DNA from: a virus
Lineage: Duplodnaviria > Heunggongvirae > Uroviricota > Caudoviricetes
Virus record (IMG/VR): IMGVR_UViG_2541047850_000007
Coordinates: 1-10,146 of that record
DNA: 10,146 nucleotides
Direction: 5' to 3' (one strand)
The position numbers were made by a program. Below are positions 9,001 to 10,146 of the stretch, in pieces. Each line of letters begins with the position of its first letter. The first letter of the stretch is position 1.

Positions 9001-10146
9001 TATGGACATGCACAGCCCGCAAGCCGTATCAGCTGGCATGGCGTACGATGGCAGAAACCAGGGCGATGACGGCGACATCGATCGCATACTGAAAACCATC
9101 TGAGACAAGGCCGGAGAAATCCGGCTTTTTTTTACGGGTCCTTTCCGGCATATGGACCCGTTACGGGGCGGCGACCTCGCGGTTTTTCGCTATTTATGAG
9201 CCTTTTCAGGGGGGTGGTGGTGGTTTTGTTGTTTGCTCTATCTTTATGAATAAAAAGGGAAAGATGCAAGCAATACACCAACCTGAAGCAGTAATTAAGT
9301 TGGTGTATTAATGAAATCGCACCTGATGAACAAAAAAAACATGGCTAAAAGCTGCCGTGTAAGTGCGACAGCGTTCGACAAGTGGGGAGTAACTCCCGTT
9401 GAGCGTAAAGGCCGTGAGGCGTTTTATGATGTTGCCAGCGTGATAGACAATAGGGTTAACAATGCAATTAGCCAGCTTACAAACGACAAAGGCGATATTG
9501 ACGATGATGAACTATTACGAGTCAGGATCAGATTACTGACAGCGCAGGCGGAGGCGCAGGAGCTTAAAAACGAGCGCGAACGAGGCGACGTTATTGATAC
9601 AGGGTTTTGCCTGTACGCGCTTTCAAAGCTGGCGAGCCAGATTTCTTCAATCATGGACAGCATCCCGCTTACTATGCAAAGGAGCTTTCCACACATTACC
9701 CCAGCCATGCTGGATGGGCTTAAAAGGGAAGTGGTTAAAGCCTGTAATGCCAGTGCCAGAGTTGCCGACAACCTCCCACAGATACTGGCTGATTACTTGA
9801 AAGAAACAACCGGAAACGTACCGGAAAAGTTGCAGCAGAATAAAGATAAGTAACGTAGTACGCTATGACTGAATCCGAAATACTGCGATTAATCCGCCGC
9901 GTCTCTGGAATCAGCCAGCAGGCTGACGAACAGACCACGCAGCCGGACAGCGTGACAGCCGAAAACTATGCGCGTGTGGTTGCTGAGGTGATGCGCCGTG
10001 ATGGTATCCAGCTTAATGATGTGGATATGCGCGACATACGGATCCGCGTTCTTGAAATGCTGGCCTACAATCGCCGCGTTGAGATGTATCGGGAGAAAGA
10101 AAAAATAACGTACCACTGGAAGAAGCCGGAGCGGTTACGGCGGTAA

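What the first reader, a model, noticed from the sequence alone, without database searches (positions are those of the whole stretch)
9272..9309. Perfect 11-bp inverted repeat directly upstream of the Nu1-like gene: candidate cosB
AATACACCAAC and GTTGGTGTATT are exact reverse complements 16 bp apart, ending 1 nt before ATG 9311. Lambda cosB has oppositely oriented Nu1-binding R elements between cosN and Nu1. This repeat is in the equivalent position but has a different sequence, consistent with satellite-specific packaging recognition. As RNA it could instead form a stem-loop that occludes the start region.
Basis: seen in the sequence. Interest (0 to 1): 0.5.

Follow-up and report, generated by a model that had tools for sequence, protein, structure and literature searches.

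The report
Satellite cosB: TerS-binding repeat before terS
The inverted repeat is real and lies in the DNA-packaging recognition site (cosB) of an E. coli phage satellite that carries its own small terminase, but only its left arm is conserved among relatives; it matches the inverted "R2" site of phage N15-type cos sites, while the perfect symmetry is a recent quirk of one lineage.

Summary
The repeat is confirmed: AATACACCAAC (9272-9282) and GTTGGTGTATT (9299-9309), 16-nt spacer, ending 1 nt before ATG 9311. Alone it is only marginally unusual (5% of shuffled windows).

The window is a PICI-type satellite. It has lambda-like cosQ (9136-9142) and cosN (9166-9177) followed by its own full-length Nu1-family TerS (34% identical to lambda Nu1, closest phage N15 at 47%).

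Counted from the cosN nick, the left arm lies at bp 107-117, where lambda R2 lies. It is 9/12 identical to the reverse complement of the mutationally mapped N15 R3 site. It keeps the same position in all relatives that have it. N15-class phages carry an inverted R element at that coordinate.

A conserved G/T block (9207-9233) occupies the R3 position.

The right arm overlaps the terS ribosome-binding site. It is 7-9/11 complementary in other lineages without compensating changes, and distant relatives have an ordinary Shine-Dalgarno sequence there. The RNA hairpin is stable only in this lineage.

Verdict: the cosB interpretation is largely right for the left arm. The right arm is at most an accessory R1-like site. 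This is a new member of a known kind, of moderate interest.

The parts
9107..9133 (+). Intrinsic-terminator-like hairpin plus T-run, ending the upstream capsid / decoration / 137-aa ORF block just before cosQ
   Evidence: stem 9107-9128, 9 pairs, followed by a T-run. Absent in relatives that have an AlpA-like gene here.
9136..9142 (+). cosQ-like heptamer GGGTCCT, within ACGGGTCCTTTCCGG
   Evidence: Read. It matches the cosQ shown for lambda, phi80 and EcCICFT073 in PMC6739421 Fig. S1 and is conserved across the family.
9166..9177 (+). cosN cohesive-end sequence GGGCGGCGACCT, identical to lambda bp 1-12; taken as bp 1-12 of the packaged DNA
   Evidence: single exact match in the window; alignment with the lambda left end through about bp 45.
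9188..9199 (+). Conserved CGCTATTTATGA block (bp 23-34), shared with lambda, N15 and even relatives with 36% TerS identity
9207..9233 (+). R3 zone: G/T-rich (GGT)n-TTTT-GTTGTT block at bp 42-68; probable primary TerS site(s)
   Evidence: Plus-strand matches to the mapped N15 R3 (GAGGTTGTTGTT): 9/12 at bp 49-60 and 57-68, with exact GTTGTT at bp 63-68. 70% of columns invariant and 90% with at least 8 of 9 sequences identical across TerS 56-100% relatives, against 29% in flanking segments. N15-class phages have R3 at bp 49-61.
9239..9251 (-). Possible IHF (I1-like) site between R3 and R2; weak
   Evidence: The window has 3 mismatches to WATCAANNNNTTR here. Distant relatives have 1-2 mismatches at the same coordinates and strand (bp 74-86), as does lambda. 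Inconclusive.
9271..9285 (-). Left arm of the repeat (9272-9282) plus flank: R2-type element in inverted orientation, bp 106-120
   Evidence: TACACCAACCTG (bp 109-120) is 9/12 to the reverse complement of the N15 R3; 0.96% of shuffles give a minus-strand hit that good. Fixed offset from cosN in all relatives that have it. 91% of columns have at least 8 of 9 sequences identical. Phage L128 has an inverted R at bp 109-120, and phages L110/L112 share the 12-mer ACACCAACCTGA. Lambda R2 is at bp 109-124.
9283..9298 (.). 16-nt spacer CTGAAGCAGTAATTAA; its first 5 nt (CTGAA) are invariant within the 82-100% set and belong to the R2 footprint
9296..9309 (+). Right arm (9299-9309): R1-like direct copy that overlaps the terS ribosome-binding region (GGTG 6-9 nt before the ATG)
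   Evidence: 8/12 to the N15 R3 at bp 131-142. 11/11 complementary to the left arm only in one shallow clade, 7-9/11 elsewhere, and replaced by CAGAGGT in the 169-170-aa clade and by GAGGAGGT in N15-class phages.
9311..9853 (+). terS: satellite-encoded Nu1-family small terminase, 180 aa
   Evidence: Pfam PF07471 E=9e-23; phrog_57 E=1.9e-52; 34% identity to lambda Nu1, E=2e-33; family profile hits lambda TerS 6hn7_B, E=0.005; closest phage TerS is N15 at 46.6%, none above 60%. No terL follows.

Best explanation
The repeat is part of the cosB packaging-recognition site of a phage-inducible chromosomal island (PICI) that carries its own lambda-family small terminase.

**Proposed mechanism**
- After helper-phage induction, the satellite's TerS binds as a winged-helix dimer. 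It has an AFDKWGV-type recognition helix like N15, unlike lambda's.
- It binds a G/T-rich R3 zone (bp 42-68 from the cosN nick) and an oppositely oriented R2 element, which is the left arm of the repeat (bp 107-120). The DNA between them is probably bent.
- This anchors the helper's large terminase on the lambda-type cosN 100 bp upstream.
- Satellite concatemers are then cut and packaged while the helper's own cosB is ignored.

The right arm is a lineage-specific, R1-like direct copy lying on the terS ribosome-binding site. At most it is an accessory TerS site, as R1 is in lambda.

**Basis**
- Shown: positions, conservation, sequence similarity to the mutationally mapped N15 site, and protein homology.
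- Inferred: binding by TerS, DNA bending, recruitment of helper TerL, and any role of the right arm.
For: - **Context.** cosQ, cosN, then terS, in a satellite with integrase, D5-type primase, SSB, capsid-E homolog and decoration protein, and no terL.
- **Geometry.** Lambda has R3 at 53-64, R2 at 109-124 and R1 at 151-166. The window has the G/T zone at 42-68, the left arm at 107-120 and the right arm at 131-144.
- **Independent probe.** The N15 R3 (GAGGTTGTTGTT) was mapped by block mutations that cut yield 7-fold and 100-fold (PMC4669245). It hits the plus strand at bp 49-60 and 57-68 (9/12), the minus strand at bp 109-120 (9/12) and the plus strand at bp 131-142 (8/12). Three of the window's 12 hits of at least 9/12 fall in this 145-bp interval. 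Only 0.96% of shuffles give a minus-strand hit that good.
- **Recognition helix.** Window SATAFDKWGVT, N15 SVQAFDKWGVQ, lambda SIRTIQNWQEQ.
- **Footprint.** The R3 zone and the left arm have at least 8 of 9 sequences identical in 90-91% of columns, against 29% in the segments beside them. This holds across relatives with TerS 56-100% identical. There are no indels between cosN and the left arm.
- **True phages.** N15-class phages with a TerL carry an inverted R element at bp 109-120 (L128) or 118-129 (L109-L112). L110/L112 share ACACCAACCTGA with the window.
- **Linkage.** The gene upstream of cos differs between relatives (137-aa scaffold-like versus AlpA-like, with no detectable similarity), while cosB and TerS stay together.
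- **Precedent.** Rpp-type PICIs are proposed to carry an R3 at the same coordinates (PMC9026076). Swapping cosB determines PICI packaging (PMC6739421).
Against: - No binding or packaging data exist for this element.
- Similarity of the left-arm 11-mer to the window's own R3 zone (8/11) is not above composition (p about 0.3-0.5).
- R-type sequences have a 3-nt period and low complexity, so registers are ambiguous. The exact GTTGTT lies 9 bp further from cosN than in N15.
- In the most distant PICI relatives the left arm scores below 8/12 to the N15 probe (no hit listed for L084, L092 or L088). In L088 the block itself has diverged to AATATAGCCAC.
- The IHF site is weak in the window (3 mismatches).
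- The right arm shows no covariation with the left arm, is lost in several lineages, and is spaced 22 bp from R2 instead of 46 bp.
- N15 itself packages with R3 alone (PMC4669245), so an R2 may be dispensable.
Confidence: 0.65

Rival explanations
1. Only the left arm is functional, as the R2 site. The right arm is simply the terS ribosome-binding region, and its perfect complementarity arose neutrally. One route is a single template-switch ('quasipalindrome correction') event that copied the left arm onto an already similar sequence. Under this reading the symmetry itself does nothing.
For: - The perfect repeat is confined to one shallow crown clade. Deeper lineages have 7-8/11 and outgroup L095 has 9/11.
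- Left-arm position 3 varies (T/C/A) while its partner stays A, so there is no compensation.
- All right-arm variants keep a G-rich tetramer 5-9 nt before the ATG. The 169-170-aa clade and the N15-class phages have a canonical Shine-Dalgarno sequence there.
- The mosaic L054 shows the right arm travelling with the terS 5' allele rather than with cosB.
- Quasipalindrome template switching in E. coli is established knowledge, not tested here.
Against: - All 180-aa-clade right arms remain 7-11/11 complementary to the left arm, against about 2.75 expected by chance. Most are individually significant (p<=0.05). This suggests an old R1-like copy rather than pure coincidence.
- In lambda, R2 and R1 are an exact 16-bp inverted pair, so perfect R2/R1 identity has a functional precedent.
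Confidence: 0.25
2. On the mRNA the two arms pair into an 11-bp stem-loop. This sequesters the weak Shine-Dalgarno sequence (GGUG) and the region next to the start codon, and so throttles TerS translation.
For: - The window RNA 9262-9330 folds at -16.2 kcal/mol with the 11-bp stem. Shuffles average -9.5 +/- 2.2, giving z=-3.07, and 0 of 200 shuffles fold as well.
- The 3' arm ends 1 nt before the AUG.
Against: - The fold is not conserved. Six relatives give z from -1.2 to +1.2, and the stem is broken by non-wobble mismatches.
- No compensating substitutions occur.
- No promoter was detected between the upstream terminator and the repeat, so it is not known that the left arm is transcribed together with terS.
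- The conserved left arm is explained better by its match to inverted R elements in phages that have an ordinary Shine-Dalgarno sequence.
Confidence: 0.07
3. The repeat is an operator for a dimeric transcription regulator, either from the satellite (AlpA-type) or from the helper, that controls terS expression. It would be unrelated to packaging.
For: - Perfect inverted repeats next to a start codon are typical operators.
- The satellite encodes an AlpA-like HTH gene near the integrase.
Against: - No sigma-70-like promoter in 8900-9500.
- Symmetry is not conserved.
- The only other copy of the left-arm core in the window lies inside the capsid gene at 8131.
- The conserved half-site co-occurs with this TerS lineage whatever the neighbouring gene, and it recurs in true phages at the R2 coordinate.
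Confidence: 0.03

Closest known systems
Lambda cosB (R3-I1-R2-R1), bound by gpNu1
   Same: - Lies between cosN and the small-terminase gene.
- Three related elements with the middle one inverted.
- R3 and R2 coordinates nearly identical: lambda 53-64 and 109-124, window about 49-68 and 107-120.
- In lambda too, R2 and R1 form an exact inverted repeat (16 bp).
- The protein is homologous over its full length (34% identity).
   Different: - The R sequence is unrelated: CGTTTCC-type in lambda, (G-K-T)n-type here.
- The recognition helix differs.
- R2-R1 spacing is 22 bp rather than 46 bp, and R1 abuts the start codon.
- The IHF site is weak.
- No terL follows; the element is a satellite.
Phage N15 cosB, and the 'Monarch' group of N15-specificity prophages with a tripartite cosB (Feiss lab; PMC4669245)
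   Same: - Closest phage TerS (46.6% identity), sharing the AFDKWGV recognition-helix core.
- The R element GAGGTTGTTGTT resembles the window's R3 zone and, inverted, the left arm (9/12, the same score as N15's own rR2).
- N15-class phages found here (L109-L112, L128) have R3 on the plus strand and an inverted R at bp 109-129, with the terS ATG at bp 142; the window's is at bp 146.
   Different: - N15 itself has only R3, plus a remote rR2 inside gene 1.
- The helix is not identical to N15's, which is the stated Monarch criterion.
- (GGT)n replaces (GTT)n in part of the R3 zone.
- The comparator phages have an ordinary Shine-Dalgarno sequence where the right arm lies.
- The Monarch sequence itself could not be obtained (PMC4461450 is not held).
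Rpp-type E. coli PICIs (EcCICFT073 cos1-rppA; PMC6739421, PMC9026076)
   Same: - Same kind of satellite and gene order (int, alpA, pri, ori, capsid and decoration homologs, cos).
- Lambda-type cosQ and cosN with a divergent cosB, followed directly by the specificity gene.
- An R3-PICI is proposed at bp 48-65.
   Different: - This island encodes a full-length TerS with a C-terminal half similar to lambda's, not a 139-154-aa Rpp.
- No Rpp homolog is present.
- It has repeated R-type elements, whereas Rpp-type PICIs are said to have none.
- The EcCICFT073 bp 55-63 sequence ACCACCACC is the reverse complement of the window's TGGTGGTGG at bp 50-58.
SaPI-encoded TerS with a SaPI pac site (Gram-positive PICIs)
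   Same: The logic is the same: the satellite brings its own small terminase and cognate recognition site, and borrows the helper's large terminase and capsids.
   Different: Headful (pac) packaging rather than cos packaging; an unrelated TerS family; no cosN or cosQ.

Membership tests
Lambda-like complex cosB (R3-I1-R2-R1) | Located immediately to the right of cosN, between cosN and the small-terminase gene | tested here: met
   cosN 9166-9177, terS ATG 9311; the repeat is at bp 107-144 from the nick.
Lambda-like complex cosB (R3-I1-R2-R1) | R3 element about 48-65 bp from the nick | tested here: met
   Conserved G/T zone at bp 42-68 with 9/12 matches to the N15 R3 at bp 49-60 and 57-68. The exact register is ambiguous.
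Lambda-like complex cosB (R3-I1-R2-R1) | R2 element in the opposite orientation, about bp 109-124 | tested here: met
   Left arm: minus-strand 9/12 match at bp 109-120; fixed offset in relatives; same coordinate in phage L128.
Lambda-like complex cosB (R3-I1-R2-R1) | R1 element in direct orientation downstream of R2 | tested here: inconclusive
   Right arm is 8/12 to the N15 R3 and 11/11 to the left arm here, but 7-9/11 elsewhere and absent in the 169-170-aa clade. Spacing is 22 bp against 46 bp, and it overlaps the ribosome-binding site.
Lambda-like complex cosB (R3-I1-R2-R1) | IHF site (I1) between R3 and R2 | tested here: inconclusive
   The window has 3 mismatches to WATCAANNNNTTR at bp 74-86 (minus strand). 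Distant relatives have 1-2 mismatches at the same place; lambda has 1-2 at bp 74-91.
Lambda-like complex cosB (R3-I1-R2-R1) | The elements are bound by the cognate TerS winged-helix domain | not testable with these tools
   Only homology is shown: full-length similarity to lambda Nu1, and the family profile hits lambda TerS 1-98 (6hn7_B, E=0.005).
N15/Monarch packaging-specificity class | TerS recognition helix identical to that of N15 | tested here: not met
   Window SATAFDKWGVT against N15 SVQAFDKWGVQ. The AFDKWGV core is shared, but 3 of the 11 positions compared differ. Related, not identical.
N15/Monarch packaging-specificity class | R3 strongly matching GAGGTTGTTGTT at bp 48-59 | tested here: inconclusive
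   9/12 at bp 49-60 (GTGGTGGTGGTT) and at bp 57-68. The critical GTTGTT is exact but at bp 63-68 rather than 54-59.
Rpp-type PICI cos site | An rpp gene (139-154 aa, no TerL-binding C-terminus) follows cos | tested here: not met
   The gene after cos is a 180-aa Nu1-family TerS aligned to lambda Nu1 through residue 180. No Rpp homolog: the PDB search is empty for the 137-aa ORF, and tblastn finds only a weak HTH hit (E=0.067) in the alpA-like gene.
Rpp-type PICI cos site | cosB has a single R3 equivalent and no repeated R sequences | tested here: not met
   Repeated elements are present on both strands.
RBS-sequestering mRNA stem-loop | Fold significantly more stable than shuffled sequence | tested here: met
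   -16.2 kcal/mol, z=-3.07, in the window only.
RBS-sequestering mRNA stem-loop | Pairing maintained in relatives, by conservation or compensating changes | tested here: not met
   Seven of the eight arm types have 7-8/11 pairing without compensating changes. Relatives fold at z between -1.2 and +1.2.

The most novel reading that the evidence does not exclude
E. coli cos-type PICIs may use a second hijacking strategy that does not depend on Rpp. They would carry a private small terminase of N15-like specificity together with a private tripartite cosB, while swapping cosN and cosQ to match whichever helper TerL is available. In the lineage of this window, the R1-like arm has been made perfectly complementary to R2 directly on the terS ribosome-binding site. 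TerS occupancy of cosB, or the mRNA hairpin, could then feed back on TerS synthesis, coupling packaging-site recognition to autoregulation.
Probability: 0.15. Interest if true: 0.6.

Novelty: new member of a known kind. Interest (0 to 1): 0.4.

Why it matters
For Gram-negative cos-type PICIs, the only worked-out packaging mechanism is Rpp, which re-targets the helper's TerS. Those islands are described as lacking terS and lacking repeated R sequences.

This window shows a widespread E. coli satellite lineage that instead carries its own Nu1-family TerS with a lambda-style multi-site cosB of N15-like sequence class. About 700 of the 5426 complete genomes contain most of this region.

- The work predicts exactly which base pairs to mutate: 9207-9233 and 9271-9285 first, then 9296-9309.
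- It gives the Feiss and Penades type of genetic assays a natural test case for whether R2 and R1 matter when R3 specificity is N15-like.
- It flags that cohesive-end sequences are exchanged under a constant cosB/TerS module.

The repeat itself is an ordinary feature of lambda-like cos sites and not a new mechanism.

Tried and rejected
- **Sigma-70 promoter scan of 8900-9500.** No sites found, so no support for a promoter or operator reading.
- **IHF consensus scan.** Weak in the window; left as inconclusive.
- **Left arm versus the G/T block.** I tested whether the left-arm 11-mer is an inverted copy of the window's own G/T block. The match is 8/11 and not above composition (p 0.3-0.5). I replaced this with an external probe, the mapped N15 R3.
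- **Solved-structure search.** phmmer of the TerS and of the 137-aa ORF against PDB gave no meaningful hits. Only the family profile reached lambda TerS.
- **Genome-contig scan with the family alignment.** It returned just 4 loci.
- **The 'Monarch' cosB.** I tried to obtain it, but PMC4461450 is not held and no accession appears in PMC4669245. Phage hits H33 and H36 proved to be N15-like simple and lambda/21-like respectively. N15-class phages with a long cosB were found instead in viral contigs.
- **Literature.** Searches for a described Nu1-type TerS in E. coli PICIs found only the general remark that some Gram-negative PICIs carry terS.
- **Contig size.** I considered that the 30-60 kb contigs carrying this TerS were phages. 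They lack terL and look like helper-embedded satellites.

Full report
**Observation.** The repeat exists as described. AATACACCAAC (9272-9282) and GTTGGTGTATT (9299-9309) are exact reverse complements 16 nt apart, and the right arm ends one base before ATG 9311. Any perfect 11-bp inverted repeat with a 3-30 nt spacer appears in 5.1% of 1000 dinucleotide-preserving shuffles of the window. The repeat alone is therefore only marginally unusual. The window also holds other, unrelated repeats.

**Context.** The window is a phage-inducible chromosomal island (PICI) type of satellite.
- Genes: integrase (1-1239), D5-type primase (3411-5243), iteron-type origin (5255-5489), SSB, a capsid-E homolog (7275-8330), a decoration protein, and a 137-aa ORF.
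- After these come a terminator-like hairpin (9107-9133), cosQ GGGTCCT (9136-9142) and a cosN identical to lambda's cohesive end (9166-9177).
- The gene after cos is a full-length Nu1-family small terminase (TerS) with no terL behind it: Pfam E=9e-23; 34% identity to lambda Nu1 over residues 6-166, E=2e-33.
- This differs from the published E. coli model EcCICFT073. That island has no terS and places rppA after cos1 (PMC6092414 and PMC6739421).
- No Rpp homolog is present here.
- Most of the region occurs in 701 of 5426 complete E. coli genomes.

**Comparison within the family.** I compared 84 loci with TerS 82-100% identical. The left arm core plus CTGAA (ACACCAACCTGAA) is invariant. The right arm has eight arm-pair types, and only the window's type is 11/11 complementary. 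The other seven are 7-8/11, with no compensating change in the left arm.
- On a terS tree, the perfect repeat is confined to one shallow crown clade, and the 75%-identity outgroup has 9/11.
- In relatives with TerS 56-59% identical (Kosakonia, Superficieibacter, Citrobacter, Enterobacter), the left arm persists as CAATACACC[A/C]AC at exactly the same distance from cosN. It has diverged to AATATAGCCAC in the Citrobacter-type loci (L088-L091). The right arm is replaced by an ordinary Shine-Dalgarno sequence, CAGAGGT.
- Across nine representatives, at least 8 of 9 sequences are identical in 90% of columns in a G/T-rich block at bp 49-68 from the nick and in 91% of columns in the left arm (bp 107-117). 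The figure is 29% in the segments beside them.
- The RNA stem-loop is strong in the window (-16.2 kcal/mol, z=-3.07) but no better than shuffled sequence in six relatives.

**Comparison with known cos sites.** In lambda, R3, R2 and R1 lie at bp 53-64, 109-124 and 151-166, with R2 inverted and R2/R1 forming an exact 16-bp inverted pair. The window's G/T block, left arm and right arm lie at bp 42-68, 107-120 and 131-144 with the same strand pattern.
- The closest phage TerS is that of N15 (46.6% identity; no phage record exceeds 60%).
- It shares the AFDKWGV recognition-helix core, where lambda has TIQNWQE.
- The N15 R3, GAGGTTGTTGTT at bp 48-59, was defined by block mutations that reduce yield 7-fold and 100-fold (PMC4669245).
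- Used as an outside probe, it matches the window at bp 49-60 and 57-68 (plus strand, 9/12), at bp 109-120 on the minus strand (the left arm, 9/12, equal to N15's own accessory rR2) and at bp 131-142 (the right arm, 8/12).
- Only 0.96% of shuffles give a minus-strand hit that good. Three of the window's twelve hits of at least 9/12 fall in this 145-bp interval.
- True N15-class phages with a long cosB and a gpA-like TerL have R3 at bp 49-61 and an inverted R element at bp 109-120 (L128) or 118-129 (L109-L112).
- L110 and L112 share the 12-mer ACACCAACCTGA with the window.
- These phages have a normal Shine-Dalgarno sequence where the window has its right arm.

**Caveats.**
- The left-arm 11-mer's similarity to the window's own G/T block (8/11) is not above composition.
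- These 3-nt-periodic sequences allow several registers.
- The IHF-like site between R3 and R2 is weak in the window.
- No promoter for terS was found.
- The Monarch-type cosB described by the Feiss lab could not be retrieved.
- Nothing here shows binding.

**Interpretation.** The left arm is best explained as the R2 element of an N15-class, lambda-style cosB that serves the satellite's own TerS. The main R3 zone lies upstream, outside the reported coordinates.
- The gene upstream of cos differs between relatives while cosB and TerS stay together. This argues that TerS is the binding partner.
- The right arm is an R1-like copy sitting on the terS ribosome-binding site. It is poorly conserved, so it is at most accessory, as R1 is said to be in lambda (PMC4669245).
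- Its perfection in this lineage may be neutral, for example the result of template-switch correction of a quasipalindrome. That route is my inference and was not tested.
- The RNA hairpin and operator readings are not supported by comparison, but they cannot be excluded for this lineage alone.

**Verdict.** The claim of a satellite-specific sequence needs narrowing to 'N15-like, not lambda-like'. The feature is a new member of a known kind. The surrounding system, a cos-type E. coli PICI with its own TerS and multi-site cosB, is the more interesting part and appears uncharacterised in the literature I could search.

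Noticed in passing
window 5255-5489: Eleven copies of the 11-mer GGTGAACAGTT, in both orientations, lie directly 3' of the primase gene (which ends at 5243). This is the iteron-type replication origin expected for a PICI (layout as in PMC6092414).
   Followed up: partly
L037-L046, L053, L072, L078, L082, L095 versus window 9166-9177: Family members with nearly the same cosB and TerS carry different 12-nt cohesive-end sequences, for example GGGCGTCAGGCG, GGGCGGAAGGCG, GGGCGGCAGACG, GGGCGGCTGACG and GGGCGTCAGCGT. This suggests cosN is exchanged to match different helper TerL proteins while the TerS/cosB module stays constant.
   Followed up: no
L088-L094 about 6040-8500; L039 about 5168-6384: In Citrobacter and Enterobacter loci, and in some E. 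coli loci, the satellite is followed by a truncated lambda-like capsid E gene and then FI, FII, Z and U. The satellite is therefore embedded in a helper prophage head gene. This matches the published helper-embedded PICI '11capE' (PMC10111431), although that island was reported to lack terS.
   Followed up: partly
window 9215-9223 (bp 50-58) versus EcCICFT073 cos1 bp 55-63: The proposed Rpp-binding 'R3-PICI' of EcCICFT073 (ACCACCACC, top strand, by my count from PMC6739421 Fig. S1A) is the reverse complement of this family's TGGTGGTGG at nearly the same distance from cosN. The same trinucleotide repeat therefore appears in the opposite orientation in the two PICI types.
   Followed up: no
window 9210-9225; L013, L014, L015, L021: The (GGT)n / G-run part of the R3 zone is length- and sequence-polymorphic between otherwise near-identical islands. 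L015 lacks one GGT, and L013 has a long G run. This looks like microsatellite-type slippage inside the putative primary TerS site.
   Followed up: no
L003, L018, L033, L059, L060, L064, L067 at bp 101-117: Several lineages carry ACACCAACACACCAAC, a tandem duplication of the left-arm core that gives two adjacent minus-strand R-like hits. Phages L109-L112 likewise have two overlapping inverted hits at bp 111-129.
   Followed up: no
window 8690-9103: The 137-aa ORF just upstream of cos matches phrog_1999 and the C-terminal part of head maturation protease (phrog_53, E=7e-10), so it may be scaffold-like. In relatives this slot holds an unrelated 127-aa AlpA/excisionase-like gene. Together with the capsid-E and decoration homologs, it may bear on capsid remodelling.
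   Followed up: partly
window 1281-1317 and 6869-6907: Two further perfect inverted repeats: 12-bp arms just after the integrase gene, and 14-bp arms (AAAAGCCCGATAAG...) that look like a terminator.
   Followed up: no
L086 (Glaciecola) and L087 (Thalassotalea), bp 1-96: Marine Alteromonadales relatives (TerS 36-37% identical, same HLLNKKNMA N-terminus) keep the CGCTATTTATGA-like block and an N15-type R3 (GGAGTTGTTGTT, 10/12) at bp 48-59, with the ATG at about bp 95. They therefore have a simple N15-style cosB.
   Followed up: no
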